From an uncultured delta proteobacterium (GTDB lineage: Bacteria; Desulfobacterota; Binatia; Binatales; Binataceae), in assembly GCA_963755905.1 (NCBI GenBank), contig CAVWLM010000002.1, positions 160,754 to 224,753 on the forward strand: DNA of 64,000 nucleotides. Direction: 5' to 3'. How positions within the stretch are numbered: the first letter of the stretch is position 1; each line of letters starts with the position of its first letter. A program made the position numbers and the translations under genes. The notes beneath the pieces are model-generated. The model saw only the letters and a program-made list of their open reading frames with translations, was not told the DNA's origin and ran no database searches. Positions 8,622 to 39,816 of the stretch are shown piece by piece.

Positions 8622-9223
8622 GTCCCCGGCTAACGCCCTCGCAAACTATCGGCCCGTTTTTTCATCGCGCGCTGATCCACGAAGGGTGGAACGACCTTGT
8701 CGCCCGCGGCGCGGTTGGCGAGCGCATCGTGATCGAGGGGCGCGTGCTCGACGGCGACGGCGCGCCGGTCACCGACGCAATGATCGAGGTATGGCAGGCG
8801 AACGCCGCGGGCCGTTACGATCATCCCGAAGACCTCGAGCGTGATGAGCCGCGCGAAAATGGACGCCCGCCAAGACCGCTCGATCCCAACTTCCACGGGT
8901 TCGGCCGCATCGCAACCGGTCCGGACGGCCGCTTTCGCCTGCGCACCATCAGGCCGGGGCCGGTGCCGGGCGGCGATGGCGCGCCGCAGGCGCCGCATAT
9001 CAACCTGTCCGTCTTCGCGCGTGGGCTCCTGAAGCGGCTCGTCACGCGGATATATTTTCCCGACGAGCCGCTAAATGGGGCCGATCCGCTGCTGAGCGAG
9101 CTACCTGCCGGTCGCCGGGCTACGCTGATCGCGCGCTTCGCGGAAAGCATCGGGGATGAGCGCACCCTGCATTTCGACATCGTGTTGCAGGGCGGCAACG
9201 AGACCGTGTTTCTCGACGTGTAA
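8618..9223 (+). CDS. pcaG: Protocatechuate 3,4-dioxygenase alpha subunit
   Basis: GRVLDGDGAPVTDAMIEVWQANAAGRY. ATGA overlap with pcaH. Confidence 0.9.
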   Translation: MSPRLTPSQTIGPFFHRALIHEGWNDLVARGAVGERIVIEGRVLDGDGAPVTDAMIEVWQANAAGRYDHPEDLERDEPRENGRPPRPLDPNFHGFGRIATGPDGRFRLRTIRPGPVPGGDGAPQAPHINLSVFARGLLKRLVTRIYFPDEPLNGADPLLSELPAGRRATLIARFAESIGDERTLHFDIVLQGGNETVFLDV

Positions 9224-9256
9224 AACGATGCGCTTGCAGTTTCGCGGGCAGAGCCG

Positions 9257-10612
9257 ATGAGCGTCCATCCGGCGGATTCGGAAATCTCCGGAGCGCTCTG
9301 GGGAACAGCCGAGACGCGCGCGCTCTTTTCCGACATGGCGCATCTTCAGTTGATGCTCGACGTCGAGGCCGCGCTCGCGCGGGCCGAAGCGAGCCTCGGC
9401 CTGATCCCGCCGGAAATCGCCGAGACGATCACGAAGGCGGCGCGGGTCGAGAACCTGCGGATCGAGCGAATCGCCGAGGGCACGCGTGCCACCGGCGTGC
9501 CGGTCCCGGCTTTGGTGAGCGAGGTTGGCCGCGTGGCCGGCGAAGAGGCCGCGCGCTACCTGCATCTGGGCGCGACTACGCAGGATATTCTCGATACCGC
9601 GCTCGTGCTTCAGATGCGGAGTGCGCTCAAGTTTTTGCGGCGCGATCTGGTGGCGCTCGCCCGCACACTGGCGGCGCGCGCGAGCGCGTATCGCAACACG
9701 CCGATGGCCGGACGAACGCACCTGCAGCACGCGGTGCCGATAACTTTCGGGCTCAAGTGCGCGGTATGGGCGTCGCCGCTCGCGGCCCATGTCGAGCGGC
9801 TCGATCAGGCGGCGCGCCGTGCTCTCGTGGTGCAATTCGGCGGCGCCGCGGGAACGCTCGCCGCGCTCGGCACGAACGGAGTGGCGGTGACCGAGGCGTT
9901 GGCGTGCGAGCTTGGCCTGGGCGTGCCGGATGTGCCCTGGCATGCCGCGCGCGACACCATGGCGGAAATTGCCGCGCTGCTGGGGTTGGTATGTGGCAGC
10001 CTCTCCAAGTTTGCGTTCGACATCGCGCTGCTGATGCAGGTCGAGGTGGCCGAGGTTTTCGAGCCGCACGCCGCGGGCCGCGGCGGTTCGAGCACGATGC
10101 CGCAAAAGCGCAACCCGGTCGCCGCCGAGTACATCATTGCCGCCGCGCGTGGCGTACATGCGCTGGCGCCCTTGATGCTGACCGCGATGGGGCAGGATCA
10201 CGAGCGCGCCACGGGTCCCTGGCAAAGCGAGGCGCTGGCGCTGCCGCAATGTTTCGTCCTTTGCGCGGGTGCGATGGCGCATGCGCTCACGATCGCCGCG
10301 GGAATGACGATCGACGCGGCGCGGATGCGCCGTAACCTGGACCTTGGCGGCGGGCTGATCATGGCCGAGGCGGTGGCGACCGGACTGATGCCGGTGATGG
10401 GCCGTGCGGCGGCGCATCATGTGCTTCAGCGCGTTTCGGATCGTGCGATCGCCGAGGGCAAACCACTCCGCCAGGCGCTGCGCGACGACGCCGAGGTGCG
10501 GCGCCACCTGAGCGACGAGCAGATCGACGGCTTGACCGATCCGGCGGCTTACCTGGGCTCGGCGGGCGCTTTCGTCGACCGCGTAGTTGCGCGAATCGCG
10601 CGGCTCGGCTGA
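9257..10612 (+). CDS. pcaB: 3-carboxy-cis,cis-muconate cycloisomerase
   Basis: Fumarase/aspartase-family lyase with GSSTMPQKRNP and HLGATTQD. Immediately follows pcaHG. Confidence 0.85.
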   Translation: MSVHPADSEISGALWGTAETRALFSDMAHLQLMLDVEAALARAEASLGLIPPEIAETITKAARVENLRIERIAEGTRATGVPVPALVSEVGRVAGEEAARYLHLGATTQDILDTALVLQMRSALKFLRRDLVALARTLAARASAYRNTPMAGRTHLQHAVPITFGLKCAVWASPLAAHVERLDQAARRALVVQFGGAAGTLAALGTNGVAVTEALACELGLGVPDVPWHAARDTMAEIAALLGLVCGSLSKFAFDIALLMQVEVAEVFEPHAAGRGGSSTMPQKRNPVAAEYIIAAARGVHALAPLMLTAMGQDHERATGPWQSEALALPQCFVLCAGAMAHALTIAAGMTIDAARMRRNLDLGGGLIMAEAVATGLMPVMGRAAAHHVLQRVSDRAIAEGKPLRQALRDDAEVRRHLSDEQIDGLTDPAAYLGSAGAFVDRVVARIARLG

Positions 10613-10616
10613 CGCA

Positions 10617-12068
10617 TCAATGCACCGGCGGGCGTTTGGCGGCCCACGGACGCGCTTGTTCGAGTTGAGCGGCCACTCGCAGCAACGCCGCTTCGTCACC
10701 CAGGCGGCCGGCTATCTGAACCCCGACGGGTAGCCCGCCGGCGCTCCAGTGCAGAGGCAGCGAGATGGCCGGTTGGCCGGTGGTGTTGAAGAGCGGCGTG
10801 AAGGGCGCGTAGGAAAAAACCTGTCGCGTCCATTCCATCGCGGTCATGCCTTTGCGGTGCTGGTCGAGTTCGCCTAGCGGCGCTGGTAGGCGCGCGATTG
10901 TCGGGGTTACGAGCAAGTCCACGTTCTCGAAGAAAGCGCCGACCTGCCGCGACACCAGATTGCCGTGCGCAATCGCGTTGAGCAGGTCAGCGGCGGAGTA
11001 GCGCTTGCCGTCCTCGTAGCAGGCGAGCGTCACTGCTTCGAGGTTGTCGGGCCCCGGTTTGCGCTGGAGCGCCGCCGCCGCGGCGTCGATCGAAGTGACG
11101 GTGAACGCGGTCCAGATGACGTGTACGTTTTCGAGGAACGCGTCCCAGTCGTAGCGTGGGCGATCTTCGATCAGCGTGTGGCCGAGACTTTCGAGCAACC
11201 GTACCGTTTCGTGCACGGCCTTTTCGCATTCCGGGTCGACCTTGTCCCCTGAAGCGGGCGTGGCCGTCCAAGCGACACGCAGGCGCTCCGGCGCGGCCGC
11301 AATCAATTCGCGGTAAGGGCGAGCGGGCGCCACGGAATGGCCTGGCGCTCCCACGTCCGGACCGGCCACCGCGTCGAGCATCGCGGCAGCGTCGCGCACG
11401 CTGCGCGTCAACACGAACTCGCACGCCAGCCCGCAGAGCAGATCGCCATTGTCCGGGCCCGAGGGGATGCGATCGCGCGAGGGCTTGAGTCCGACCAGGC
11501 CGTTGCACGAGGCCGGAATGCGGATCGAGCCGCCGCCGTCGTTGGCGTGGGCGAGGGGCACGACGCGCGCCGCCACCGCCGCGCCCGACCCGCCGCTGGA
11601 GCCGCCGGCGCTGCGTCCGAGGTCCCACGGGTTGTGCACGGGGCCGAAGGCGCGGGTCTCGGTGGTCGGGCTATAGCCGAACTCCGGCGTCTGCGTGGTG
11701 CCCACCAGCACCAGGCCGGCGCGCCTAAAACGCGCCATCAGTTCGGTGTCCGCCGGCGCCACGAAGCCCTGCGTAAATTTCGATCCGCTGTCGCAACGGA
11801 CGCCCTTGGCGTGCAGAATGAGTTCCTTGATCATGAAGGGCACGCCGGTGAACGGACCTCGAGGAAGGCCGGCGCGAATTTCCGCCCCGGCCTCGTTGGG
11901 AAGCGTCTGCAGCACGGCGTTGATTTTGGGATTAATCTTCGCCACCGCCTCGAACGCGGCGGCGGCGAGTTCGTCCGGCGTCACCTCGCCGCGGGCGACC
12001 AGTTCGGCGAGTCCGAGTCCGTCGTGAGAGGCGTAATCGTCGAACGAAATCATGCGCCGGTCCTCCAT
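10617..12068 (-). CDS. Amidase (amidase-signature family)
   Basis: GGSSGGSGAAVAA...GGSIRIPAS is the AS signature region. Convergent with pcaB. Confidence 0.8.
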   Translation of the reverse strand: MEDRRMISFDDYASHDGLGLAELVARGEVTPDELAAAAFEAVAKINPKINAVLQTLPNEAGAEIRAGLPRGPFTGVPFMIKELILHAKGVRCDSGSKFTQGFVAPADTELMARFRRAGLVLVGTTQTPEFGYSPTTETRAFGPVHNPWDLGRSAGGSSGGSGAAVAARVVPLAHANDGGGSIRIPASCNGLVGLKPSRDRIPSGPDNGDLLCGLACEFVLTRSVRDAAAMLDAVAGPDVGAPGHSVAPARPYRELIAAAPERLRVAWTATPASGDKVDPECEKAVHETVRLLESLGHTLIEDRPRYDWDAFLENVHVIWTAFTVTSIDAAAAALQRKPGPDNLEAVTLACYEDGKRYSAADLLNAIAHGNLVSRQVGAFFENVDLLVTPTIARLPAPLGELDQHRKGMTAMEWTRQVFSYAPFTPLFNTTGQPAISLPLHWSAGGLPVGVQIAGRLGDEAALLRVAAQLEQARPWAAKRPPVH

Positions 12069-24651: not shown

Positions 24652-24960
24652 TTGATTATCGAAACGATCAAAATCGAATTGAACTCGATAGTAGTAGCGA
24701 CCGCGAACCAGATTTCCTGCGACCTCGAGGGCGACGCCGCGATCCTCAATCTGAAAACCGGCGTATACTATGGACTGGACGATATTGGCGCGTCGATTTG
24801 GCGGATGCTAAACGAGCCGCGTCGCGTCGATGATCTGGTCGACGCATTGCTCGGCGAGTATGAGGTGGACCGCGAGGAATGCCAGCGCGACGTGATCGCG
24901 TTGCTGGGCGAACTTGCCGTGCGCGGACTGGTCGAGGTAAGTGACACGCTCGAAAGTTGA
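24652..24960 (+). CDS. PqqD-family RiPP recognition element (lasso-peptide B1-like)
   Basis: ILNLKTGVYYGLDDIGASIWRMLNEPRRVDDLVDALLGEYEVDREECQRDVIALLGELAVRGLVE is near-consensus PqqD/B1. TTG start. Confidence 0.8.
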   Translation: MIIETIKIELNSIVVATANQISCDLEGDAAILNLKTGVYYGLDDIGASIWRMLNEPRRVDDLVDALLGEYEVDREECQRDVIALLGELAVRGLVEVSDTLES

Positions 24961-25469
24961 CTGCCCTCGGCGTTGTCGCGGGGCTGGACCGTCCCGCCTG
25001 GAAATCCCGTCGAGCGCGAGCGTCCAGGACCACGATGGTACGTCGAGCCGCTAAATTTCTTGGCCTGCCGTTCTCCGACCAGCGGCTGCTTATGCGTGCC
25101 GCGCTGGCGGTCGTCGGTGCAAAGGTCGCTATTAGAACCTTGCGCTTGCCCGCCGCGCGCGCGGCAGTTTTGCGCCTGGAACGCCTGGGATGGTTTGTCA
25201 TCCCGGCGCCCGCGGACCGTATTGTCTGGGCCGTGGCAGCAGCTGGAGGCACCATACCCGGCATGAAGAATTGCCTGGTGCAGGCGGTGGCGGCCGAGGC
25301 GATGCTCATCCGCGCGGGCCATCCGTGCGAATTCCGGATCGGCGCTGCGAAAAGCGGGCCGCACGGCCTGATCGCGCATGCATGGCTGGAGAATGAGGGC
25401 CGGGTTCTTATCGGCGATTTCGAGGTCGATCGCTACGCTCCGCTGATGGCGCGTCGTCCTCAGAATTAA
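24957..25469 (+). CDS. Transglutaminase-like cysteine protease (lasso-peptide B2-like leader peptidase)
   Basis: CLVQAVAAEAMLIRAGHPCEFRIGAAKSGPHGLIAHAWLENEGRVLIGD has the Cys...His...Asp arrangement of lasso B2. Overlaps the B1 stop. Confidence 0.8.
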   Translation: MTALGVVAGLDRPAWKSRRARASRTTMVRRAAKFLGLPFSDQRLLMRAALAVVGAKVAIRTLRLPAARAAVLRLERLGWFVIPAPADRIVWAVAAAGGTIPGMKNCLVQAVAAEAMLIRAGHPCEFRIGAAKSGPHGLIAHAWLENEGRVLIGDFEVDRYAPLMARRPQN

Positions 25470-25637
25470 GCCTGTATTTTCAATGATTTCGTCCTGTTCC
25501 TTGGGCTTATCGTAGAGTGTAGACTCGCCTCCGGATCAAGGGTTGCGGATGTGACGATTCGCGAACTGACCCGCAGGCGGCGCACAATCAAATCCTCCGT
25601 ACAGCCGCGTTCCTCTCGACCAGCGCGATCGCGCTAT

Positions 25638-26630
25638 ATGGCCTATGGGCTCGCGATTGATTCCGATCTGTCGCTGCCCCAGTTGGAAGCGACGCGCGGT
25701 CAATCCTGGCCGTTTCTGCTGGGGAAACTACGTATACGAGTGCGGCGGCAGGAGGCGCGCGAGCCGCAGGAGTGGCTGCTTCAGACCAGCCTCCCCGACG
25801 GGCAGCCGTGGATGTGGGCGGCACGCCAAGAGCGCGGCTTTCTGATCCGCTACTTCGGTCTGGCTGATTTCATAGTGAATTCGAGGGGTACGGAGATCGT
25901 TCTCACGCGCGCCGAACCGGTAAGCTCGAGCGATACCGTGGGCCATCTGCTGCTGGATCATGCGCTTCCGATGGTTTTGGGCCTGCGCGGAATCCCGACG
26001 CTCCATGCCTCCTCGGTGGTGACCCCGCGCGGCGTGTGCGCTTTCGTGGGGACCACCGGAGCCGGCAAATCTACGCTCGCCGCAAGCTTTTCCGCCGCTG
26101 GATATCCAGCCTTGGGCGACGATTGCCTAGCGATAGCGGAGGACGGCGGATTTTTCGCCATCCCGGCATACCCGGGCGTACGCTTATGGATGGATTCCGC
26201 ACGATCATTGTCGACGGAATGGTCCAATGCGCCCACCGTTGCGCATTACACGAACAAGCTGCGTATTTTTGATGCGTCCGCCCTCAAGAACTTCCCCACG
26301 CGGCTCGAACCGCTGGCGGTCATCTATTGCCTCGCGCGCGATACGGCAGGCGTCGATCCAGGCGCGGCGTCGCCCTCGATCGAGCCGATGCAGCCCAAGG
26401 ACGCCTTTCTGGAACTGCTATCTGCCAGCTTCATGCTGGACATCACCGACAGCTCGGTGCTGACCCGCAACCTTCGCTTTATCGAGCGCTTGTTCAAGGT
26501 GGTGGCGGTACGGCGGCTCAAAATTCCCGAGGGATTTTCTTCATTGCCCAAAGTACGCGAGACGGTTTTCAACGACCTTGGTGTGCCGGCTCCCCGCGCC
26601 ACCTTCGGCGCGCCCCTCGGAGCTAGATAG
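25638..26630 (+). CDS. HPr-kinase (HprK C-terminal domain)-like serine kinase
   Basis: HASSVVTPRGVCAFVGTTGAGKSTLAASF is a P-loop in HprK-like context. Start taken at MAYGL; the ORF opens at 25551. Confidence 0.7.
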   Translation: MAYGLAIDSDLSLPQLEATRGQSWPFLLGKLRIRVRRQEAREPQEWLLQTSLPDGQPWMWAARQERGFLIRYFGLADFIVNSRGTEIVLTRAEPVSSSDTVGHLLLDHALPMVLGLRGIPTLHASSVVTPRGVCAFVGTTGAGKSTLAASFSAAGYPALGDDCLAIAEDGGFFAIPAYPGVRLWMDSARSLSTEWSNAPTVAHYTNKLRIFDASALKNFPTRLEPLAVIYCLARDTAGVDPGAASPSIEPMQPKDAFLELLSASFMLDITDSSVLTRNLRFIERLFKVVAVRRLKIPEGFSSLPKVRETVFNDLGVPAPRATFGAPLGAR

Positions 26631-26665
26631 GAGGCGGCCAATCGCGTACGCCCCTGGCGTCGTCG

Positions 26666-27931
26666 ATGCGCGTCATCAACCCGATCGCATCTCTTCTGAA
26701 ATCCGGTTCGGCGGTGAGCCGTGAGGCTGAACTGCTCATCTGTTGCTCGACCTCGGTCGCGACGCCCGAGCGCACGGCGCGTTTGCGCGCGATCGTTCAG
26801 AGCGGCGTCGATTGGCCTCTCGCCACGCGGATGGCGTTGGTACAGGCGGTACTGCCACTCGTCTATCGCTACCTGACTGCGGAGCTTGCCGACGCCTTGC
26901 CGGCCGATGCGGCCACGAACCTGCGCCGGGCTTATCAGGGTAACTCTTTGCGCAACCTCCATCTCGCGCGCGAGCTAATCCGATTGACCGCACTTTTGGA
27001 GCGGGGCGGCGTCGAGACGCTAGCGCTCAAGGGTCCGGCGCTGGCGATGACCGCCTACGGCAGTGTCGCGATGCGGCAGTTCACCGACCTTGACCTGCTG
27101 GTGCGCAAGAGCGCGGTGCCACGCGCGGTCGAACTACTACATAACGAGGGCTACGCGCTCCGCGAGGGGTTCGGCCTGGCTGACCTCGGGCGGCGCGACA
27201 CCTACGAAATTGCGCTCACGCGGGCGGACCGGCTGACCGAAATCGATCTTCACTGGAGACTTATCCTGCCGTATTTTCCGTTTTCGCTCGACAGCGAAGA
27301 TCTGTGGCGGCGTGCCGTGCGGGTGGAGATCGAAGGCGGCGCCGTGCGTACGCTCGCGCCCGCCGATCATCTGCTCTATCTATGCGTGCACGGCGCCAAG
27401 CATGGATGGCAAACGCTCGGCGGGATTTGCGATCTGGCCGGGCTGATTCGCGCTTCGTCGCAGGCATCATCGCAAGCATTCTCAATCGACTGGGATGAGC
27501 TCTCGGCACGCGCCGAGCGAGCCAGTGCGCCGCGGGCGCTGTGGCTCGGCACGCTTCTCGCGCATGAGCTGCTCGACGCCGCGGTGCCGGCCGGCGTGCT
27601 CGCCGCGGCTCGTCGCGAGCCCGCGGTGATCCGCGCCGCGCGCTGTTTCGTCGGTTACGTGAGCGACCCGGGCGACGATGGGCCGGGATTCTACCAGCGA
27701 TGGTCGGTGCCGCTGCGCGTAATCGCGGAACCCGGAGCGCGGCTCCACTACCTGGCGGCTCGCGCGCTGCTGCCGAGCGCCGACGATCGCGAATTTTTGC
27801 GCCTGCCGCCGGTGCTCCATCCCCTGTACTATCTACTGCGTCCGGTCAGGGTGGCTCTAAAGGAGGGTCCCGCCGTCCTACGCAGGCTTATGCGTTCGGC
27901 CCTACGGCCGGCAGATCATTCATCGCGGTGA
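26666..27931 (+). CDS. Nucleotidyltransferase-family protein (uncharacterised NTase, often lasso-cluster associated)
   Basis: Family call by overall similarity (LALKGPALA...FTDLDLLV...LHWRL) plus context. Confidence 0.55.
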   Translation: MRVINPIASLLKSGSAVSREAELLICCSTSVATPERTARLRAIVQSGVDWPLATRMALVQAVLPLVYRYLTAELADALPADAATNLRRAYQGNSLRNLHLARELIRLTALLERGGVETLALKGPALAMTAYGSVAMRQFTDLDLLVRKSAVPRAVELLHNEGYALREGFGLADLGRRDTYEIALTRADRLTEIDLHWRLILPYFPFSLDSEDLWRRAVRVEIEGGAVRTLAPADHLLYLCVHGAKHGWQTLGGICDLAGLIRASSQASSQAFSIDWDELSARAERASAPRALWLGTLLAHELLDAAVPAGVLAAARREPAVIRAARCFVGYVSDPGDDGPGFYQRWSVPLRVIAEPGARLHYLAARALLPSADDREFLRLPPVLHPLYYLLRPVRVALKEGPAVLRRLMRSALRPADHSSR

Positions 27932-29835
27932 GCAAAACCCTCGAAGCTTATATCCGCGCGTTGTTCGAGGTCGGACGAGCTCGAATCGCCGGTGCGATCG
28001 CATTGATGTTTCTTTTTTCGGTCAGCGAGGGTGTCGGGATCGCGCTGCTCCTGCCGATCCTCCAGGCCTCCGGCTTCGACCTCGGCGCGCAGGGCACGGT
28101 TGGGCGCTACGCAAGAGCTTTCGATTCCGCGCTTGACTCTGTCGGCTTCCATCCGAGCCTGCTGTTGCTGCTGATGGTGTTCGCGGGATTGGTCGGGGCG
28201 CGGGCGCTTCTGGGGCGTTGGCAGATAGTCGCGATGGTCTCGGTGCAGCAGAATTTCGGCGCCCGTCTGCGTCAGGGACTGTACCACGCGATCGCCAACG
28301 CCAACTGGCTCGCGCTTTCGCGGATGCGCTCGTCGGACCTGGCTCACGCGCTGACGGCGGAGATAGACCGGGTCGAAGCCGCGACCTTCGAAGTGCTTAG
28401 CCTCGCCTCCTCGGCGCTGCTGTTCCTGCTCTATCTTGCGATCGCGCTTGCGGTCTCGGCGGGGATGACAGCGCTCGCGCTAGGTTGTGGAATCGTCCTT
28501 GTCGCATTGCTGCGCGGACGCGCGGCGCTTCTGCGCGGCGCAGGCGCCGACTTGTCGGAGCGGACCAAGGGACTGTACCGCGCCACGGTCGAGCATCTGC
28601 AGAGTCTCAAGGCAGCCAAAATGTACGGCCTGCAGGAGCGCAATGCCGAATCCTACGCGACGCTCAGCCGCGAGGTCTCCCGAGCCGGCGTCGATATCGA
28701 GCGCCAGCAGGCCGCCACCAACTCGCTCTTCGAGATTGGTTCGGTCGTGATCCTGGCTGCCGTGCTCTACGTCTCGATTCGCGTGCTGGGGGTCGCTCCG
28801 TTCGCGGTGCTGTTGCTGCTGGCGATGTTCGCGCGCGTGATGCCGCGCGTCATTCAATGCCATCAACTGTACCAGGAGTGCATGCATGCGCTGCCCGCGT
28901 TCGAGAACGTAAACGATCTGGCCGGGCGTTGCGCAGCGATGGCCGAGCCGGCGATCGTTCTCGCTCACGCGCTCGAATTTCGAAATTCGCTGAAGCTCGA
29001 GGGTGTCTCGTTCTCGTATCGGCGCGCGAATGACGCCGCATCCGCCAACCAGTCTGACCAATCGAGCCAATCTCCCCAATGGTCTCCCGCTCAATCCAAA
29101 AATCCGCCCGCGGTGCGCGATCTCGACCTGACGGTGCGTCTGGGTGAGGTCGTGGCGCTGGTCGGTCCTTCGGGTGCGGGCAAGAGCACGATTGCCGATT
29201 TGATGACGGGTTTGTTGCCGCCTGATTCGGGAAACGTCACAGTCGACGGCGTTGTGCTGGACGAAACCCGTGCGCGCGCTTGGCGCGAGCAGGTAGGTTA
29301 TGTCTCGCAAGACACCTACCTCTTTCACGACACTGTGCGGGCCAATCTGCTGTGGGCAAGGCCGCAGGCGAGCGAGGCCGAATTGCGCGAGGCGCTCGGC
29401 CTCGCCGCGGCGCAACAATTCGTCGACGCTCTGGCGGAGGGACTCGACACGGTAATCGGCGAGCGGGGCTCGTCGATTTCGCACGGTGAGCGCCAGCGTA
29501 TCGCGCTCGCGCGGGCGCTGTTGCGCCGGCCTCGTTTGCTCATCCTCGACGAGGCGACCAACAGCCTCGACGCGCACAACGAGCAGCGAATCCTTGACGC
29601 GATCGAACGGCTACGTGGCGATCTGACCATCGTGATGATCGCGCATCGGATTGCGGCCGTGCGGCGGGCCGACCGGATCAACGTAGTGGACGGCGGTTCG
29701 ATCGTGGAATCGGGGAGTTGGAATGAACTATGCGCTCGAGAGCATGGGCGCTTTCGAGCGTTATGCGAGAGCCAGGGAATCGCACCCGTGCCGCTGGCCC
29801 CGGCGGCGCCTCCGTCAATAGGCCGTCTGGCATAA
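27928..29835 (+). CDS. ABC transporter, fused permease/ATPase exporter (lasso McjD-like)
   Basis: Six-TM domain followed by an NBD (GPSGAGKST Walker A, ILDEATNSLD Walker B, IAHR H-loop). GTG start overlapping the upstream stop. Confidence 0.8.
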   Translation: MSKTLEAYIRALFEVGRARIAGAIALMFLFSVSEGVGIALLLPILQASGFDLGAQGTVGRYARAFDSALDSVGFHPSLLLLLMVFAGLVGARALLGRWQIVAMVSVQQNFGARLRQGLYHAIANANWLALSRMRSSDLAHALTAEIDRVEAATFEVLSLASSALLFLLYLAIALAVSAGMTALALGCGIVLVALLRGRAALLRGAGADLSERTKGLYRATVEHLQSLKAAKMYGLQERNAESYATLSREVSRAGVDIERQQAATNSLFEIGSVVILAAVLYVSIRVLGVAPFAVLLLLAMFARVMPRVIQCHQLYQECMHALPAFENVNDLAGRCAAMAEPAIVLAHALEFRNSLKLEGVSFSYRRANDAASANQSDQSSQSPQWSPAQSKNPPAVRDLDLTVRLGEVVALVGPSGAGKSTIADLMTGLLPPDSGNVTVDGVVLDETRARAWREQVGYVSQDTYLFHDTVRANLLWARPQASEAELREALGLAAAQQFVDALAEGLDTVIGERGSSISHGERQRIALARALLRRPRLLILDEATNSLDAHNEQRILDAIERLRGDLTIVMIAHRIAAVRRADRINVVDGGSIVESGSWNELCAREHGRFRALCESQGIAPVPLAPAAPPSIGRLA

Positions 29836-29948
29836 GCTGGAAATCCTGATTCCCGAAGCGCGTCGGCATCCAGGCGCGCAATCATTGGAAGAGGCGAGCG
29901 GAGTCTTTTCGGCCAATCAGTCCTTTATCCGGTCGGAGCGGCTGTCGC

Positions 29949-31370
29949 TTAGCCCAGGTGCGGTACCGATCCGGGTGCCGCCTCGAGCACGGCCGCACGC
30001 CACTCGCGCTTGATCGGCAGGATCGGTGGCATCGGCGCAAAATCCGGCTCCGGCGTAGGCGCGGCGATCGAATCGATGTTCAAGGTGCGCGAAGCTTTCC
30101 GCATGAAGAGATTATAGATCAGCCATTGCGCGCGATGCCGCCTGCCGCGCAACGGAAATCGGCTGGCCATCGAAGACGCCGAATAAAAATTTGCGTAAGC
30201 GCGCTCCAGGCCGATACGAAGCTCGTCCGCCGACATCTGCGCCGGCTGAAATACGACGTGGCCTTGATCGTACATCGTCCAGTCGAAGGAAACGATTCGG
30301 TTCGCCTTCTTCATCTCGTACCAGGTGAGCGTGCCCGGATAGGGCGTGAGCGCCGAATAGGCACAGGCATCGAATTTGGCGCCGACATTGAAGGCGACCG
30401 TTTCGTCGAAGACCGATCGATCGTCGCCGTCGAAGCCATACATGAACAACCCGAATACCATGATCCCGTATGAATGCACTTTCTCGACCAACGCGGCGAA
30501 GGTCTCGGGCCGATTGACGTGCTTGTGTACGCTTTCGAGCGTCGCGCGTGCGATCGACTCGAAGCCGATGCTCAACATCGTGCAACCGCTTTCGGCGGCG
30601 AGCTCGAGCATGCGATCGTCCTGCGCCAGTTTAGAGGTGACGCCGGCTTGCCATTGGATGCCGCGTCCTTTCAGCGCACGCATCACTTCCTTGGGACGCT
30701 CCGAGGTGCCGAAAAAGTCAGCGTCGTTGATCGAGACCGTGCGCGAGCCGCAGTTCTCCATCTCGTAAATGACCTCATCGACCGGCCGATAGCGGAATTT
30801 CAGGCCGTTCATGAGCGGTTCGGCGCAGAAAGTGCAGCCCTGGTGGCAGCCGCGCGAAGTCTGAACAAAGGTGCGGTTCACGTAACGGTTCTTTTTCAGC
30901 AAATCGTAACGCGGCATCGGCATCCCGGCCATCGGATGCAACGTATCCGACTTATACGTGCCTCGCATCGAGTGCTGCTCGAGGTCATCGAGCAGCTTTC
31001 CGATAACGAACTCGACCTCGCCGATAACGACGGCATCGCAATGCTTCAGCGCTTCCTGCGGCATGAAGCTTGGATGCACACCGCCCATCGCGACGGGCAC
31101 GCCTTTGGCGCGGAATCGGTCCGCGATTTCATAGCCGCGATTGACGTAACTGGTCATCGCGGAAATCCCGACGAGGTCCGCTTTCAAATCGAAATCGATC
31201 GTTTCGATGTTTTCGTCCGTAAGCACCACTTCGTACTGGTCCCGCGGAATGGACGCGGCGACCGCGAGTAAGCCTGCGAGCGGAGAATAGAGTGCGCGGT
31301 TCATGTATACCGGCCGAGTGGTAACAGAATCGGTCTTCGGATTAATAAGATGAATGATGCGAGTGCGCAC
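29949..31370 (-). CDS. B12-binding domain radical SAM protein
   Basis: N-terminal B12-binding region (DLVGISAMTSY) and SRGCHQGCTFCAE, a CxxxCxxC motif. GTG start with a GGAGA RBS. Confidence 0.8.
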   Translation of the reverse strand: MRTRIIHLINPKTDSVTTRPVYMNRALYSPLAGLLAVAASIPRDQYEVVLTDENIETIDFDLKADLVGISAMTSYVNRGYEIADRFRAKGVPVAMGGVHPSFMPQEALKHCDAVVIGEVEFVIGKLLDDLEQHSMRGTYKSDTLHPMAGMPMPRYDLLKKNRYVNRTFVQTSRGCHQGCTFCAEPLMNGLKFRYRPVDEVIYEMENCGSRTVSINDADFFGTSERPKEVMRALKGRGIQWQAGVTSKLAQDDRMLELAAESGCTMLSIGFESIARATLESVHKHVNRPETFAALVEKVHSYGIMVFGLFMYGFDGDDRSVFDETVAFNVGAKFDACAYSALTPYPGTLTWYEMKKANRIVSFDWTMYDQGHVVFQPAQMSADELRIGLERAYANFYSASSMASRFPLRGRRHRAQWLIYNLFMRKASRTLNIDSIAAPTPEPDFAPMPPILPIKREWRAAVLEAAPGSVPHLG

Positions 31371-32257: not shown

Positions 32258-32683
32258 ATGAGGGATACCAGCAATCACAGTTGGCAGCGATCGCTTGCGG
32301 TACGGCTGATACTCGGCGGGATGGGCGTCAGCGGGATGACCGTCACTATGGTGAGCGCGCGTGCCATAGCCCAGACGACCGTGAACAGCGAGAGTATGCA
32401 TCAAGAGAACCTGTCAGCGCATAGCGTCGAGAGTCATCACTATGCCTCGCCGGCGGATCGCGCGCGGGATGCGCTGTTGATTGTGAAGGTCAAGGCCGCG
32501 ATTGCCGATGAGGGGCTGGCTGATAACTATCCGCTGACCGTCGACGCCGATCATGGGAGAGTGACTCTTACTGGCGTCCTCGCTTCTCCCCAGGACGTGC
32601 GGCGCGCGGTCACCCTGGTGGCCAGGATTGACGGCGTGACGGGCGTGAACAACCGGCTAACGTGGCAGAAAGGTCCGCAGTGA
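32258..32683 (+). CDS. BON-domain protein (OsmY-like)
   Basis: VKAAIADEGLADNYPLTVDADHGRVTLTGVLASPQDVRRAVTLVARIDGVTGVNNRL is a BON domain. Confidence 0.7.
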   Translation: MRDTSNHSWQRSLAVRLILGGMGVSGMTVTMVSARAIAQTTVNSESMHQENLSAHSVESHHYASPADRARDALLIVKVKAAIADEGLADNYPLTVDADHGRVTLTGVLASPQDVRRAVTLVARIDGVTGVNNRLTWQKGPQ

Positions 32684-32754: not shown

Positions 32755-33108
32755 ATGAAATCCCCAATTCTCAAGGTTCTGTCGGCGGCCCTCGGTCTAA
32801 GTGCTTTGCTGGCGGCAGGATGCGTCAGCCATGAGGAGAAGACCACGGCCTATGTACCGCCCGCTCCGGTGGCGGTTGTACCGGCGCCAACCGTGGTGGT
32901 GACCGCGCCGCGGCCCGCCCCGGCGAGCGTCCAGCCTGACGTCAGCTCCACCAGTCAGACCACCGAAACATACAACGCCACAAGCTCCGACAACGCGTCC
33001 AATCCCAGTGGCGACAGCACCACAACCAGCTATCGGCAGCACAGTGAGTCGAGCACGGTTAAAACAGTGCCGGTTCCTCCTCCGCCTTCGGTCACCACAA
33101 TTTACTAG
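32755..33108 (+). CDS. Ser/Thr/Pro-rich lipoprotein
   Basis: MKSPILKVLSAALGLSALLAAGC lipobox. AAGGAGAG RBS. Confidence 0.55.
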   Translation: MKSPILKVLSAALGLSALLAAGCVSHEEKTTAYVPPAPVAVVPAPTVVVTAPRPAPASVQPDVSSTSQTTETYNATSSDNASNPSGDSTTTSYRQHSESSTVKTVPVPPPPSVTTIY

Positions 33109-33388: not shown

Positions 33389-34075
33389 ATGCGCGCCGCG
33401 GAACGCGATAAGTTGTTGTTGACTCTGGCGATCACTTCGGGTTCCGCCGACGGATGGAGCTACATGGGACTGGGGCATGCCTTTGTAGCTAATATGACCG
33501 GAAATACGGTGCTGCTGGGTATCGCGACATTCGGTGAACGTCTCAATCTATTACCTCCGTTGATTTCGCTGGTGTGCTACGCAGCCGGAGTCGCTATCGG
33601 ATCCTTGGTCACTCGCAAGGTAAAGCAGAGTTCGATCTGGTCGAAGTCCATTTCCCTGGTCCTGTTTTTTGAATTTCTTCTGTTGGTCGCGGCAGAGGCA
33701 ACATGGATCAGATCCGGAGGAAGGCCGAATCCGATGACGAAAGCCCTGCTGCTCGGCGACGTTGCCACAGCCATTGGACTTCAGAGCGGCGCTATGTTGC
33801 CGCTTAAGCTGCCAGGCATCATTACCACTTACATCACAGGCACCTGGACCACGCTGGTGAGCGGCCTTGTGTTGATGGGCAGCGGACAGGAACGTGTGCA
33901 CGGTAACCAGGCCGCCTTCGAGGATCGTCTCATAATTCAGATTGTATTCCTGGTCATTTACTTCTTATCGGCGGTGGCGACAGGATGGATCTTCCGTTAT
34001 AAGCCGGAGTTAGTAGGGGTAATAGCCTCGACTCCGATCCTGGTCGTCGTGGCTTACGGAGCGTTGCGGAATTAG
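33389..34075 (+). CDS. DUF1275 (YoaK-like) membrane protein
   Basis: Multi-TM. GWSYMGLGHAFVANMTGNTVLLGIA matches the DUF1275 N-terminus. Confidence 0.6.
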   Translation: MRAAERDKLLLTLAITSGSADGWSYMGLGHAFVANMTGNTVLLGIATFGERLNLLPPLISLVCYAAGVAIGSLVTRKVKQSSIWSKSISLVLFFEFLLLVAAEATWIRSGGRPNPMTKALLLGDVATAIGLQSGAMLPLKLPGIITTYITGTWTTLVSGLVLMGSGQERVHGNQAAFEDRLIIQIVFLVIYFLSAVATGWIFRYKPELVGVIASTPILVVVAYGALRN

Positions 34076-34247: not shown

Positions 34248-35432
34248 TTGACGTCGAGTTCGATGAGCGGCTACGAATCGGATGTTTTGAAAGTCAGCAA
34301 AGACATTCCGGAGCAATCGACCGGCTGCCATCGGAATTCGGAGCGATATTTCAAGCCCCTGATGTATCTGCTTGCCGCGTTGGCGGCATACGTGAGTGGG
34401 GCCAACATGCATTTGGGCTACGCCTATGCAGCGGATGCACCCGCGCAGGCTGGCCTGACCGTGCCCCAGGTCAATTCGCTACTGACCCCACCCGGTCGGG
34501 ACGGCGAGAAGGTCCCGATCCAGGTCGCGTTGGACGTTATCAATTTGTCCGACATAGATGAGGTCACTCAGCGTTTCAGGGTCGTAGCCTACCTGCTGGC
34601 TAAATGGACGGATCCCCGCCTCGCGTTCACTCCAAAGGCCGCATGGGAGAAATTTCGAGTTTATCACCCTGACGAAGTATGGACGCCGCATTTCGATTTC
34701 GCCAACGGCGTCGTGCCGCACTCCGCGTCTGACGTCACCCTGCGGGTCTTTCCCGATGGGACGGTCAAATATTTCGAACGTTCCAGCGCCGAGCTTTCCA
34801 ATAGTTTTCATCTTCGCCGTTTTCCATTCGATCGGCAGCGCCTGGAAATACTTATTCATCCGCCGCTCAGCGAAGCCGCGCTGGTACATTTCCTCGGCAC
34901 AGCCAATGGACCGTCGATTAGTGTGGAGAGACGAGTCTATTCGTCTCTGGCGGAATGGGCGATCGTAGGAATCCTGGCAAATGCCGAACTAATTCCCGTA
35001 TTCGGCACGGACACCACAAGCCAGATGCGATTCACAATCCAGGTCAAACGAAAGTTCAACTTCTATATATGGAAGGTATTCTTCCCCTTGCTACTCATGG
35101 TGCTCCTTTCGTGGACAGTCTTCTGGATCGACAGCTCGGAGCTAAGCAGTCAGGTTACTATCTCGGTCACGACGGTTCTCACCGTTATCGCCTTCGCATT
35201 TGCGATCTCGACCAACTTGCCGAAGGTTCCATACCTGACCTTTATCGACGTGTTTTTCTTGAGCTGCTACGTGTTTGTCTTTATCACAGCCATCGAACTC
35301 ACCCTGGTACACCTCGCCGGTCGGAGCAAACGCGACAAGATGGGAGAAGCTATTCGGCGCTTCAGCAGGATCGGCTTGCCCGTGCTATTCGTCCTCACCA
35401 ACCTGCTGACGATCGCGGTCTACTTCGGTTAG
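34248..35432 (+). CDS. Pentameric ligand-gated ion channel (prokaryotic Cys-loop receptor family)
   Basis: Extracellular LBD motifs (VINLSDIDEVTQRFRVVAYLLAKWTDPRL) followed by four TM helices. A probable signal peptide starts at M 34362. Confidence 0.75.
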   Translation: MTSSSMSGYESDVLKVSKDIPEQSTGCHRNSERYFKPLMYLLAALAAYVSGANMHLGYAYAADAPAQAGLTVPQVNSLLTPPGRDGEKVPIQVALDVINLSDIDEVTQRFRVVAYLLAKWTDPRLAFTPKAAWEKFRVYHPDEVWTPHFDFANGVVPHSASDVTLRVFPDGTVKYFERSSAELSNSFHLRRFPFDRQRLEILIHPPLSEAALVHFLGTANGPSISVERRVYSSLAEWAIVGILANAELIPVFGTDTTSQMRFTIQVKRKFNFYIWKVFFPLLLMVLLSWTVFWIDSSELSSQVTISVTTVLTVIAFAFAISTNLPKVPYLTFIDVFFLSCYVFVFITAIELTLVHLAGRSKRDKMGEAIRRFSRIGLPVLFVLTNLLTIAVYFG

Positions 35433-35680: not shown

Positions 35681-36832
35681 ATGCGCCCGTGCATAATCAT
35701 ACCAGGGATTCAGGGTTCCGCACTACAGAATGTGTATCCGCTCTCGCCGCTAACGACCTGGTCTACTTTGACTATCGTCGGGGAAAAGTTCGCAGCGCCT
35801 GATTTCGACAGTCTAGCGCTCGATGACGCTGCGATGGCGGACCGTGATGAGCACGTCGTCAGCCGACCGTCACAATTGCTCGAAATCGCGTACGGACCGC
35901 TGACCCAGGCGCTTCAAGGACGGCTGGACGTGCCGGCGTATCTGTTTCCATATGACTGGCGCTATTCGATCGCGCAGAGCGCGCAGGCGCTGGTTCAATA
36001 TGTCAACCGTTTGAAGTTAAAGTCGATGCCGTCAGTTCAAAAATGGGACGGCCTGTTTGATTTCGCGGTTCACAGCATGGGAGGCCTTGTTCTGAGGGCT
36101 TTTCTGGACGCCTGGCAAAGATCGGGCGCAGCGCCGTTACCCATCGGACAGATCTGTTTTATAGCAACGCCGCATCTCGGCGCGCTCGACGCGGCCGTGG
36201 CGCTGATCAGCGGTGAGACGCCATTGTTCGGCGGCTACAAAGAATTGCGAAAGCTCGCAAGGACTTTCCCCGCAGTATATGAGCTTCTACCTCGTTTTCC
36301 CAATGCGATAGTGCGAGCCGGAGCGCCGATCGATATCTTCGACGTGAAGAACTGGCAAAAGAATACCGTGGATCCTGACGTCGGCAATAGTGGATTCGAC
36401 GTTGAACCGGTTCATCTAATCGCCGCGAAAAGAGTCCTGACAACGCTGCCACTGCCGAGTGACCCGCCGTTCAAGATTCTTCCCGGCGATCAGCTTGTGA
36501 TCTTCGGTAATAAACCCAACGCGGTAATGGTTGAGGTCCAGGTGGGACCGGCCCCGGACTGCTGGTACGACTTCGATGGTGCGACCAAGGGCGCCGGCGA
36601 CGATGTGGTGCCAGTGCAGTCGGCGCGGCTCGCGGGTGTATCGTCGGTGGAGATTCAGGAAGACGATGTTTCTTATTTCCACCCGGTCGAGCGCGGTATG
36701 GCCTCATCCGATATGCACGCGTTTCTTCCTGCGCTCGACGAGGTCGCGACGATCGTCGCGCGATTCTTTCAGGGAGAGCGGGGGCTGGACCTGCTGCCCA
36801 AAGGCCTGCCGAGCTCTAGATTCCATCCCTGA
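35681..36832 (+). CDS. Alpha/beta-hydrolase lipase (LCAT/PGAP1-like)
   Basis: AVHSMGG is a GxSxG nucleophile elbow. Confidence 0.55.
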   Translation: MRPCIIIPGIQGSALQNVYPLSPLTTWSTLTIVGEKFAAPDFDSLALDDAAMADRDEHVVSRPSQLLEIAYGPLTQALQGRLDVPAYLFPYDWRYSIAQSAQALVQYVNRLKLKSMPSVQKWDGLFDFAVHSMGGLVLRAFLDAWQRSGAAPLPIGQICFIATPHLGALDAAVALISGETPLFGGYKELRKLARTFPAVYELLPRFPNAIVRAGAPIDIFDVKNWQKNTVDPDVGNSGFDVEPVHLIAAKRVLTTLPLPSDPPFKILPGDQLVIFGNKPNAVMVEVQVGPAPDCWYDFDGATKGAGDDVVPVQSARLAGVSSVEIQEDDVSYFHPVERGMASSDMHAFLPALDEVATIVARFFQGERGLDLLPKGLPSSRFHP

Positions 36833-38539: not shown

Positions 38540-39399
38540 TTACGACGGTTGGTGGCGGCGCCATGGCGAACCCGGCTTTGACCGCGGTATTGGGACGCTT
38601 GCCAACTATCATCGATGCTAACGAGACGCTGCCGATCTTGCCCACGACGACCACCGTGGTGAGCGCCGCCAGCGCCAGCCAGTGCTTTCCCAGCAGTTAC
38701 GGATCGACGAGCATCCCGACCGAGACGAAAAAGATCGCGGCGAAAATGTCGCGCACCGGCTCGATCAAGTGCTCAACTTGCACTCCCTGTCCCGACTCGG
38801 CAACCAGCGAGCCGGCCAGAAATGCGCCGAGCGCGACCGTGTTAGCCCGCCCGTTCGGCGATCGTCGCGAAGGCGAAGCACAGCCCCAGGCTCGCAATCA
38901 AGAGCGCTTCCGGCCGATTGAACCGCGCGATCCCACGCACCACGAAAGGGACGGTGATCAATCCGACCGCAATCAGCACAACTACAAATGAACTCAGGAG
39001 GCCCGCGGTGATCGAGAACGCGTGAAGCGACTCTCTAGTCCCGTTAGACATAGTAATCAGCACCGCCAGCAGTAAGATCGCGACCACGTCCTCGCACAGC
39101 ACTATGCCGAAGACCAGCTCGCGCACGCTGGGGTCCACCTTCACCTCTTCGAAGGCCTTGGCCACGATGACGGCCCCGGAAATCGAGACCATCGCGCCAG
39201 TCAACAGGCTTTCCCACGGGGTCCAGCCCATCAGGCGCCCCACCAGATGGCCGAGCCAGACCATCGAAACGACCTGAACCACGGCGACCAATCCGGCGGT
39301 GGGAGCAAGGCGTATCAGCCGACTAAACCTGAACTCCAGGCCGATCGCGAAAACCAGCAGGATGACACCAAGATCCGAGACGAGCTGGACCCGTTCCAT
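38540..39399 (-). pseudogene. Decayed cation:proton antiporter (CPA2/Kef-type) remnant
   Basis: Kef-like TM segments (LVFAIGLEF..., AAIFFVSVGMLVDP | LLGKHWLALAAL...) are spread across three reading frames. The gene is truncated at both ends. Confidence 0.55.
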
Positions 39400-39439
39400 G
39401 TTGGCGTACACCCCGGGCACATGTGGCCCGACCACAATC

Positions 39440-39600
39440 CCGCATGGCCTACGGTATTCGTTCGCGTCTGCCCTGATCGCAGCAGGCAGGCGGGTCACCG
39501 AAGTGCAATCCATCCTCGGACATAGCTCTCCCGCAATCACGCCTGGGGGTTTATGCGCACTGGTTCCGAGCCACCAAACCACCGCGATGGATACCGTCGT
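39440..39600 (+). pseudogene. Tyrosine-recombinase (phage-type integrase) C-terminal remnant
   Basis: LRYSFASALIAAGRRVTEVQSILGHSSPAIT matches the integrase box II region. The catalytic Tyr context is degenerate and there is no intact upstream domain. Confidence 0.45.
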
Positions 39601-39735
39601 CCGGTCTCTTCTTTTCCCGGATTCGGCACGGAGGCAAAAAGTGGGCACTAGAACGACGACACCGGCCAACGTTCAACCTCCTAGCCGACTGCGCGCATCT
39701 CATAAACTTGCGAAATGACTGCGGAATTTTCAAGT

Positions 39736-39816
39736 TGCGAGAGGGGGGACTTGAACCCCCACGCCTTGCGGCACCGGATCCTAAGTCCGGCGCGTCTGCC
39801 ATTCCGCCACTCTCGC
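39736..39816 (-). tRNA. tRNA-Leu (anticodon UAG)
   Basis: Cloverleaf folded by hand: GCGAGAG acceptor, anticodon loop CTTAGGA, long variable arm, GGGGG-TTCAAGT-CCCCC T-arm. Closely resembles E. coli tRNA-Leu. Confidence 0.85.

What the first reader, a model, noticed from the sequence alone, without database searches (positions are those of the whole stretch)
34248..35432. Prokaryotic pentameric ligand-gated ion channel in an envelope-protein neighbourhood
Bacterial Cys-loop-family channels (GLIC/ELIC relatives) are uncommon. This one keeps a full extracellular ligand-binding domain with a signal peptide plus four TM helices. It sits between a DUF1275 membrane protein and a BON-domain protein upstream and a secreted LCAT-like lipase downstream, inside the putative island. 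The ligand is unknown.
Basis: partly seen in the sequence, partly recalled or inferred. Interest (0 to 1): 0.5.

Follow-up and report, generated by a model that had tools for sequence, protein, structure and literature searches.

The report
GLIC-like bacterial pentameric channel gene
This gene encodes a genuine bacterial relative of animal neurotransmitter-gated ion channels, from an uncultured soil bacterium (Binataceae); it is an uncharacterised member of a known family, lacks the acid-sensing residues of its best-studied relative GLIC, and has no conserved link to its neighbouring genes.

Summary

The proposed link to BON, DUF1275 and LCAT-like neighbours is not supported. Of 87 homologue loci, only the 99.5%-identical strain contig keeps those neighbours. 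The 'secreted' lipase has no signal peptide. The island idea is partly supported: low GC, a tRNA-Leu and an integrase fragment, but no att repeat.

The clade lacks GLIC's proton-sensing residues (E35→Q, E26→N, H235→V, E222→S, E243→S). Its M1-M2 linker has the length of anion-selective receptors but a neutral S-S-Q filter. Gating stimulus and ion selectivity therefore remain open. Verdict: new member of a known kind, moderate interest.

The parts
34248..35432 (+). Complete pLGIC ORF (394 aa from TTG 34248; probable true start ATG 34263, giving 389 aa; stop included)
34263..34430 (+). N-terminal leader: unconserved, low-confidence stretch, then a Sec-type signal peptide (basic R29/R33/K36, hydrophobic L38-V49, A-Y-A|A cleavage motif after A61; 394-aa numbering)
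   Evidence: sequence; hydrophobicity maximum MYLLAALAAYV; same layout in homologues; AF2 helix 27-50 with low pLDDT around it. No signal-peptide predictor was available.
34431..35051 (+). Extracellular (periplasmic) beta-sandwich ligand-binding domain, aa 62-268. Short GLIC-like loop C, no cysteines, six histidines.
34821..34832 (+). Pro-loop signature F192-P193-F194-D195 (equivalent to GLIC Y119-P120-F121-D122); no flanking cysteines
   Evidence: F 116/116, P 116/116, F 115/116, D 115/116 in the family
35058..35126 (+). M1 helix (aa 271-293) with conserved P280 and W289; pre-M1 R268 lies just upstream
35127..35213 (+). M1-M2 linker and pore-lining M2 (aa 294-322): I-D(-7')-S-S-E(-4')-L-S(-2')-S(-1')-Q(0')-V-T(2')...T(6')..L(9')...A(13')..F(16')..S(19'). 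The linker is 2 residues longer than in GLIC and ELIC and equals GlyR and GluCl.
   Evidence: reference sequences validated
35241..35324 (+). M3 helix (aa 332-359), with E350 and H355 equivalent to GLIC E272 and H277
35334..35426 (+). M4 helix (aa 363-393). The M3-M4 loop is only about 3 residues, so there is no intracellular domain.
32258..32683 (+). Context only: BON-domain protein (weak OsmY-like match). Not associated with the channel in other genomes.
33389..34075 (+). Context only: DUF1275 membrane protein (228 aa as called in L001). Not associated with the channel elsewhere.
35681..36832 (+). Context only: LCAT-like alpha/beta hydrolase with no N-terminal signal peptide. Not associated with the channel elsewhere.
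39431..39541 (+). Context: C-terminal fragment of a tyrosine recombinase (phage integrase family), only profile positions 126-162 of 172
   Evidence: E 5e-6, 26.8 bits, cut-off 27.1
39736..39816 (-). Context: tRNA-Leu(TAG), the probable right-hand boundary of the low-GC segment that holds the channel gene

Best explanation
[quoted passage not shown] Shown: it has a Sec-type leader, a periplasm-facing beta-sandwich domain, the F-P-F-D Pro-loop, the conserved ECD-TMD coupling triad (E105 / D195 / R268, equivalent to GLIC D32 / D122 / R192), four TM helices with M1 Pro and M2 Leu 9', and no intracellular domain. It belongs to a well-populated, uncharacterised clade that is found almost entirely in Binataceae MAGs. 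Those MAGs often carry this type in variable genomic contexts plus a second paralogue fixed next to fumarase. In this window the gene sits in a low-GC segment bounded by tRNA-Leu and an integrase remnant, and it has no conserved gene partner. Inferred: five subunits form a homopentamer in the inner membrane, and a periplasmic stimulus acting on the ECD is relayed through the Pro-loop, pre-M1 and M2-M3 interface to open the hydrophobic Leu 9' / Phe 16' gate. The stimulus is not sensed the way GLIC senses protons, because the residues implicated in GLIC proton activation are replaced clade-wide. Because loop C is short, there is no aromatic cage, and the ECD is His-rich with His/Arg alternation at three positions, I judge a small inorganic stimulus most likely: periplasmic pH acting through histidines, or a metal or other cation at the conserved D150 / H204 / E227 / R178 / Y115 pocket. 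A neurotransmitter-like amine seems less likely. Ion selectivity is undetermined. My guess is weakly selective or cation-permeable through the conserved acidic residues at -4' and -7'.
Against: No functional data exist for any member of this clade. Pentamer formation, gating and conduction are inferred from homology only. The stimulus proposal rests on residue conservation without coordinates or a pentamer model. About a third of family members do keep Glu at the E35 position, so GLIC-like proton sensing is not excluded for them. Between the two sequenced strains the gene shows 4 nonsynonymous to 1 synonymous change, versus 10 to 26 in its neighbours (Fisher p=0.039). This could mean relaxed constraint on this particular copy, though the sample is tiny. 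The exact start codon and signal-peptide cleavage site are not established.
Confidence: 0.8

Rival explanations
1. The channel is one component of an envelope-stress or lipid-remodelling module, together with the adjacent BON-domain protein, lipoprotein, DUF1275 membrane protein, LCAT-like lipase and acyltransferase.
For: All six genes lie on the + strand between about 32.0 and 38.5 kb, and most encode membrane or periplasmic proteins. The arrangement is retained in a second metagenome contig.
Against: That second contig is the same species (99.5% identity over 15.5 kb). None of the neighbours has a homologue within +/-10 kb of the channel in the 86 other loci (tblastn E<=1e-5). Homologues at 75-80% identity sit next to TetR/hydrolase genes, RND/copper oxidase genes or tRNA synthetase genes. 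Intergenic gaps are about 190-550 bp. The lipase has no signal peptide.
Confidence: 0.05
2. It is a functional orthologue of GLIC: a cation-selective channel opened by extracellular acidification through the same sensors.
For: GLIC is the closest solved and characterised relative. Loop C is short and there is no intracellular domain. The coupling triad, E272 and H277 equivalents are conserved. Several close homologues come from palsa, peat and other soil metagenomes.
Against: The key sensor E35 is Gln. E26 is Asn in 116/116 and H235 is Val in 111/116. The selectivity-filter residue E222 is Ser, and E243 is Ser. In GLIC these positions control proton activation (PMC5760087). The M1-M2 linker is 2 residues longer than in GLIC. 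Identity is only about 31%.
Confidence: 0.15
3. It is an anion-permeable (or charge-unselective) bacterial pLGIC. The pore entrance is built like that of GlyR, GABA-A and GluCl rather than like the characterised cation-selective bacterial channels.
Confidence: 0.15
4. This copy is a decaying passenger gene on a degraded island, no longer under selection.
For: The island shows decay: an integrase fragment and a truncated or broken Na+/H+ exchanger. The strain comparison gives 4 nonsynonymous to 1 synonymous change in the gene versus 10 to 26 in its neighbours, p=0.039.
Against: The ORF is intact and full length, and every family-invariant residue is retained. The four substitutions are conservative (K/R, F/I, F/L, H/R) and lie in the ECD. 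Five differences are too few for a dN/dS estimate.
Confidence: 0.07
5. It is an unrelated four-TM membrane protein that only superficially resembles a pLGIC.
For: None found.
Confidence: 0.01

Closest known systems
GLIC (Gloeobacter violaceus proton-gated ion channel, Glr4197; e.g. PDB 3EAM, 4HFI)
   Different: Residues implicated in GLIC proton activation are replaced: E35->Q, E26->N, H235->V, E222->S, E243->S. So are carboxylate-site residues: R77->D, N152->E, E181->T, R85->H. The M1-M2 linker is 2 residues longer. Position 16' is Phe, as in ELIC, instead of Ile. The ECD has six histidines instead of one.
ELIC (Dickeya/Erwinia chrysanthemi amine/GABA-gated channel; PDB 2VL0, 2YN6)
   Different: Loop C is 10 residues shorter. 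The aromatic-cage residues F133, Y175 and F188 have no aromatic equivalents in the query. The amine-binding E131 is His (H204). ELIC has Glu at -1' and Arg at 0', whereas this protein has Ser and Gln. The roles assigned to the ELIC residues come from my own knowledge of the ELIC literature and were not checked here.
sTeLIC and DeCLIC (other structurally characterised prokaryotic pLGICs; PDB 6FL9, 6V4A)
   Different: Lower identity (20% and 24%). DeCLIC has an extra N-terminal domain that is absent here. No residue-level comparison was made.
Anion-selective Cys-loop receptors (GlyR a1, GABA-A b3, GluCl a)
   Different: No Cys-loop disulfide (the ECD has no Cys). No P-A-R motif (S-S-Q instead). 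No intracellular domain. Bacterial origin.

Membership tests
pLGIC / Pro-loop receptor superfamily | Extracellular beta-sandwich ligand-binding domain (Pfam Neur_chan_LBD) | tested here: met
pLGIC / Pro-loop receptor superfamily | Pro-loop (beta6-beta7) with conserved aromatic-Pro-aromatic-Asp | tested here: met
   F192-P193-F194-D195; 115-116 of 116 in the family
pLGIC / Pro-loop receptor superfamily | Four TM helices M1-M4 with the M1 kink Pro and the M2 9' Leu gate | tested here: met
   Pfam Neur_chan_memb E 2.3e-14; helices 266-288, 291-316, 327-354, 358-388 in 389-aa numbering; P280 and L311 116/116
pLGIC / Pro-loop receptor superfamily | ECD-TMD coupling residues (beta1-beta2 acid, Pro-loop Asp, pre-M1 Arg, M2-M3 Pro) | tested here: met
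   E105, D195, R268, P325 conserved
pLGIC / Pro-loop receptor superfamily | Assembly as a pentamer around a central pore; stimulus-gated ion conduction | not testable with these tools
   Only a monomer model could be built. Needs biochemistry and electrophysiology.
NCBIfam curated subfamilies TIGR00860 (LIC) and NF033918 (LGIC_1) | Whole-protein score above the curated cut-off | tested here: not met
   170.4 bits vs cut-off 280.2, and 154.9 bits vs cut-off 500. The protein is homologous but outside both curated subfamilies.
GLIC-type proton-gated channel | Key proton sensor E35 (beta1-beta2 loop) | tested here: not met
   Q108 in the query; family Q 79 / E 34. Role of E35 from PMC5760087.
GLIC-type proton-gated channel | H235 (M2 11') and E243 (19'), E26 | tested here: not met
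   V313 (V 111/116), S321 (S 72 / Q 40), N99 (N 116/116)
GLIC-type proton-gated channel | E222 (-2') cation selectivity filter | tested here: not met
   S300; family S 75 / N 29 / G 8. The nearest acidic residue is at -4'.
GLIC-type proton-gated channel | Activation by extracellular acidification | not testable with these tools
   Needs electrophysiology.
ELIC-type amine-gated channel | Aromatic cage (F133, Y175, F188, Y38) and E131 for the agonist amine; long loop C | tested here: not met
   P206, T254, T257 and H204. Only the Y38 equivalent (Y115) is kept. Loop C is 10 residues shorter.
Anion-selective Cys-loop receptor pore | Longer M1-M2 linker relative to cationic channels | tested here: met
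   Spacing 45 = GlyR and GluCl; 44 in a7; 43 in GLIC and ELIC
Anion-selective Cys-loop receptor pore | P(-2')-A(-1')-R(0') motif and Cys-loop disulfide | tested here: not met
   S-S-Q; no cysteine in the ECD (sequence)
tRNA-associated genomic island | Adjacent tRNA gene and deviating base composition | tested here: met
   tRNA-Leu 39736-39816; GC 0.558 over 30.2-38.6 kb vs 0.620 elsewhere
tRNA-associated genomic island | Intact integrase and flanking att direct repeats | tested here: not met
   Only a 37-residue integrase fragment, 26.8 bits vs cut-off 27.1. No second copy of the tRNA 3' end.
Conserved gene neighbourhood / operon with BON, DUF1275, LCAT-like genes | Co-occurrence of the neighbours with channel homologues in other genomes | tested here: not met
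   0 of the 86 loci other than L001, the same-species contig

The most novel reading that the evidence does not exclude
This Binataceae clade could be the first bacterial pLGIC type whose pore entrance follows the anion-channel blueprint: a GlyR/GluCl-length M1-M2 linker and a neutral Ser-Ser-Gln filter with no -1'/-2' Glu. Its gating may also depend on titratable histidines or a metal-type D/H/E pocket rather than on GLIC's carboxylate sensors. If so, it would be a prokaryotic channel with different charge selectivity and a new sensing mode, and a compact structural model for anion-type pores.
Probability: 0.12. Interest if true: 0.65.

Novelty: new member of a known kind. Interest (0 to 1): 0.33.

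Why it matters
Prokaryotic pLGICs (GLIC, ELIC, sTeLIC, DeCLIC) have served as structural models for human neurotransmitter receptors, yet no in vivo role is known for any of them (PMC4795631). This clade is abundant in an uncultured soil phylum and is compact, with no intracellular domain. It combines a GLIC-like scaffold with a different set of candidate sensor residues and an anion-type linker length. It could therefore be a useful new model for testing what sets gating stimulus and charge selectivity. The finding itself is otherwise ordinary: it is a correctly recognised homologue, and the genomic neighbourhood that made it look special is not conserved.

Tried and rejected
1. Exact-sequence look-up of the 394-aa ORF product found nothing, because databases call the ATG 15 nt downstream; P0001 was used instead.
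2. The promoter and terminator scan of 31.3-37.5 kb gave counts no higher than in shuffles (3 vs 3.4; 5 vs 6.2), so it says nothing about transcription units.
3. The search for an att-like repeat of the tRNA-Leu 3' end gave only the tRNA itself. Direct repeats across 26.0-39.8 kb were only short two-copy chance matches.
4. An empty-site comparison for the island was inconclusive. Related Binataceae contigs keep the frc-oxc-AMP-ligase block, but each has different genes after it and no tRNA, so no clean insertion boundary could be defined.
5. The search for any recurrent neighbour of the query's own clade found only sub-clade synteny of 5-6 loci and nothing shared with the window. The strong synteny (fumarase, ferredoxin, MutS2, AsmA) belongs to a different paralogue clade.
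6. The first structure job failed and was repeated successfully. Model coordinates are not exposed, so pore geometry and pocket distances could not be measured.
7. Very long multi-copy hits in the representative library (P0246 and others) look like merged tandem gene models and were not pursued.
8. The lower GC of the gene is not in itself evidence of transfer. The closest homologues are also about 4-5 GC points below their flanks in unrelated contexts.

Full report
OBSERVATION. A 99%-identical metagenomic protein (P0001, 389 aa) is called from the ATG at 34263, which is the more likely start. [quoted passage not shown] Against all PDB sequences the best matches are GLIC entries, at E about 2e-45, covering query 81-394 and GLIC 8-316 with few gaps. 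BLASTP gives 30.7% identity to GLIC (160 bits) and 25.5% to ELIC (105 bits).

The N-terminus has an unconserved stretch. It is followed by basic residues (R29, R33, K36), a hydrophobic core (L38-V49) and an A-Y-A|A site after residue 61. Homologues share this layout although their called starts vary. No dedicated signal-peptide predictor was available, so the cleavage site is an inference.

FAMILY ANATOMY. I aligned 116 homologues with GLIC, whose sequence was checked against the alignment, and with ELIC, validated as identical to PDB 2YN6.

- The superfamily core is essentially invariant: the Pro-loop F192-P193-F194-D195, W237, pre-M1 R268, Y273, M1 P280, W289, Leu 9' (L311), P325-K326, Y329, E350 and H355. 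The GLIC D32 position is Glu (E105) throughout.
- The residues that mutational mapping implicates in GLIC proton activation (PMC5760087, read) are replaced across the clade. E26 is Asn (116/116). The key sensor E35 is Gln in the query (Q 79 / E 34 in the family). H235 is Val (111/116). E222 is Ser/Asn/Gly. E243 is Ser/Gln.
- GLIC's carboxylate-site residues also differ: R77→D/E, N152→E, E181→I/T/V, R85→H/R.
- Relative to ELIC, loop C is 10 residues shorter and the aromatic-cage positions F133, Y175 and F188 are P206, T254 and T257 in the query. ELIC E131 is a nearly invariant His (H204, in an I-H-P motif). The loop D Tyr (Y115) is invariant.
- The query ECD holds six histidines against one in GLIC. 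At three positions (148, 158, 188) the family alternates between His and Arg, and the query's closest relatives mostly carry His at all three.

PORE. The spacing from the M1 proline to the M2-M3 proline is 45 residues. This equals GlyR alpha1 and GluCl; it is 44 in alpha7 nAChR and 43 in GLIC and ELIC. The GlyR, GluCl and alpha7 segments were recalled from memory and then validated against PDB entries. In prime numbering the query reads D(-7') S S E(-4') L S(-2') S(-1') Q(0') V T(2') ... T(6') .. L(9') ... A(13') .. F(16') .. S(19').

Family-wide, the acidic residues at -4' and -7' are conserved (115/116 each), -1' and -2' are never acidic, and 0' is Gln (114/116). The pore therefore fits neither the cationic G-E-[K/R] signature nor the anionic P-A-R signature. 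Jaiteh et al. 2016 already note that this motif is variable in prokaryotes and does not predict selectivity, and that a basic 0' residue is present in 79% of sequences (PMC4795631). I therefore treat selectivity as open. The anion-type reading is a minority possibility.

WHO CARRIES IT. Named homologues are almost all Candidatus Binataceae. A scan of GTDB species representatives returned 80 loci, nearly all Binataceae MAGs or 'uncultured delta proteobacterium' MAGs, and many MAGs contributed two loci. The best hit there is only 76% identical. The oxalyl-CoA decarboxylase flanking the island has its nearest named homologues (80-86%) in Binataceae. The window is 99.5% identical over 15.5 kb to one ENA soil-metagenome contig, L001.

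In a library of 1.84 billion 50%-identity representatives, 12,818 proteins match at E<=1e-3, 4,102 at E<=1e-10 and 341 at E<=1e-30. The superfamily is a tiny fraction of proteins but not a rarity, and this clade is well populated. NCBIfam's two curated pLGIC subfamily models match below their cut-offs, which is consistent with an undescribed subfamily.

NEIGHBOURHOOD. tblastn of the ABC exporter, radical-SAM, BON, lipoprotein, DUF1275, LCAT-like, acyltransferase and Na+/H+ exchanger proteins was run against 87 homologue loci with up to 10 kb of flank on each side. All except the ABC exporter were found only in L001; the ABC exporter also had weak matches (31-42% identity) in six other loci.

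Homologues of 75-80% identity lie among TetR/hydrolase genes, between an RND pump and a multicopper oxidase, or beside tRNA synthetases. Within the query's own clade only small sub-clades share local synteny. A more distant paralogue clade (about 40-47% identity) is fixed immediately downstream of class II fumarase in 47 loci. It co-exists in the same MAGs with the query-type copy.

Intergenic gaps around the gene are about 190 and 250 bp, and the consensus promoter and terminator scans were uninformative. The LCAT-like protein begins MRPCIIIPGIQGS, with no hydrophobic leader, so 'secreted' is not supported.

ISLAND. The segment from about 30.2 to 38.6 kb has GC 0.558 against 0.620 for the rest of the window. 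It ends near a tRNA-Leu (39736-39816, minus strand), preceded by a 37-residue C-terminal integrase fragment (26.8 bits, cut-off 27.1) and a truncated Na+/H+ exchanger. No att-like repeat was found. Related genomes keep the frc-oxc-ligase block but diverge immediately after it and have no tRNA there. A degraded tRNA-linked island is plausible but not demonstrated. The channel gene's own low GC is a trait of its clade in any context.

MECHANISM. Shown: all the sequence and fold determinants of a pLGIC subunit are present. Inferred from the family: five subunits form a homopentamer in the inner membrane with the ECD in the periplasm, and a stimulus in the ECD is coupled through E105, D195, R268 and the M2-M3 loop to open the Leu 9' / Phe 16' gate.

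The stimulus cannot be read from sequence. GLIC's sensors are absent, ELIC's aromatic cage is absent and loop C is short. A conserved polar set (D150, H204, R178/E177, E227, Y115) occupies the positions of loops A, B, E, F and D, and histidines alternate with arginines at three positions. On that basis I favour a small inorganic stimulus (pH through histidines, or a metal or other cation) over an organic amine, with low confidence. No physiological role can be assigned, as is the case for every prokaryotic pLGIC.

A strain comparison shows 4 nonsynonymous to 1 synonymous difference in the gene, all in the ECD, against 10 to 26 in nine neighbouring genes (Fisher p=0.039). This is a weak hint of relaxed or diversifying selection.

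VERDICT. The identification as a bacterial pLGIC is right. The suggested functional tie to the neighbours is not supported, and the island is only partly supported. This is a new, uncharacterised member (clade) of a known kind. It is of moderate interest, mainly as a possible new model channel with a different sensor set and an unusual selectivity-filter region.

Noticed in passing
window 24652-31370: A RiPP/lasso-peptide-like gene set lies just left of the low-GC segment: PqqD (24652-24960), transglutaminase-core3 (25035-25469), a 330-aa unknown, NTP_transf_5 (26666-27931), an ABC exporter (27928-29835) and a B12-binding radical SAM gene on the opposite strand (29949-31370).
   Followed up: no
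L008 1522-3852; L006/L007 6849-9071: Tandem pairs of this channel type occur. L008 has two full-length copies 16 bp apart. In L006/L007 the upstream copy is split into separate LBD (232 aa) and TMD (114 aa) ORFs. These could be heteromers, or a decaying duplicate.
   Followed up: partly
L030-L087 (47 loci), channel at about 10001-11000, fumarase at about 8400-9970: A second paralogue clade (about 40-47% identity) is fixed immediately downstream of class II fumarase, with ferredoxin, MutS2 and AsmA nearby. It co-exists with the query-type copy in the same MAGs. Fumarate and other dicarboxylates modulate GLIC according to the abstract of bioRxiv 10.1101/2023.03.03.530963 (listed); the coincidence was not examined.
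   Followed up: partly
L005 179-15871: A 77%-identical homologue (P0004) lies between an RND efflux system (CzcB-like adaptor plus two ACR_tran genes) and a multicopper oxidase, haem-binding and cupredoxin genes, a setting that looks like metal resistance. This is a single case.
   Followed up: no
window 38842-39816: A truncated or frameshifted Na+/H+ exchanger (38842-39444, minus strand; two ORFs in L001) abuts an integrase C-terminal fragment (39431-39541) and tRNA-Leu(TAG) (39736-39816, minus strand). The L001 contig ends inside this tRNA.
   Followed up: partly
window 34263-35432 vs L001 10001-11170: Between the two strains the channel gene has 4 nonsynonymous changes (K88R, F127I, F136L, H214R, all in the ECD) and 1 synonymous change. 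Nine neighbouring genes together have 10 nonsynonymous and 26 synonymous changes (Fisher p=0.039).
   Followed up: partly
window 32755-33108: The ORF between the BON and DUF1275 genes starts MKSPILKVLSAALGLSALLAAGC, a lipobox-type lipoprotein signal, followed by a Pro/Ser/Thr-rich sequence. It has no Pfam or NCBIfam match.
   Followed up: no
L088 13372-17006: In a related Binataceae genome the position after the frc-oxc-AMP-ligase block holds a 627-aa unknown protein and a 536-aa TIR-domain protein. This suggests the site is a variable, possibly defence-associated, hotspot.
   Followed up: no
proteins P0246, P0163, P0156, P0205 (representative library): Very long proteins (853-2451 aa) have several pLGIC LBD/TMD stretches. 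They are most likely merged tandem gene models rather than natural concatemers.
   Followed up: partly
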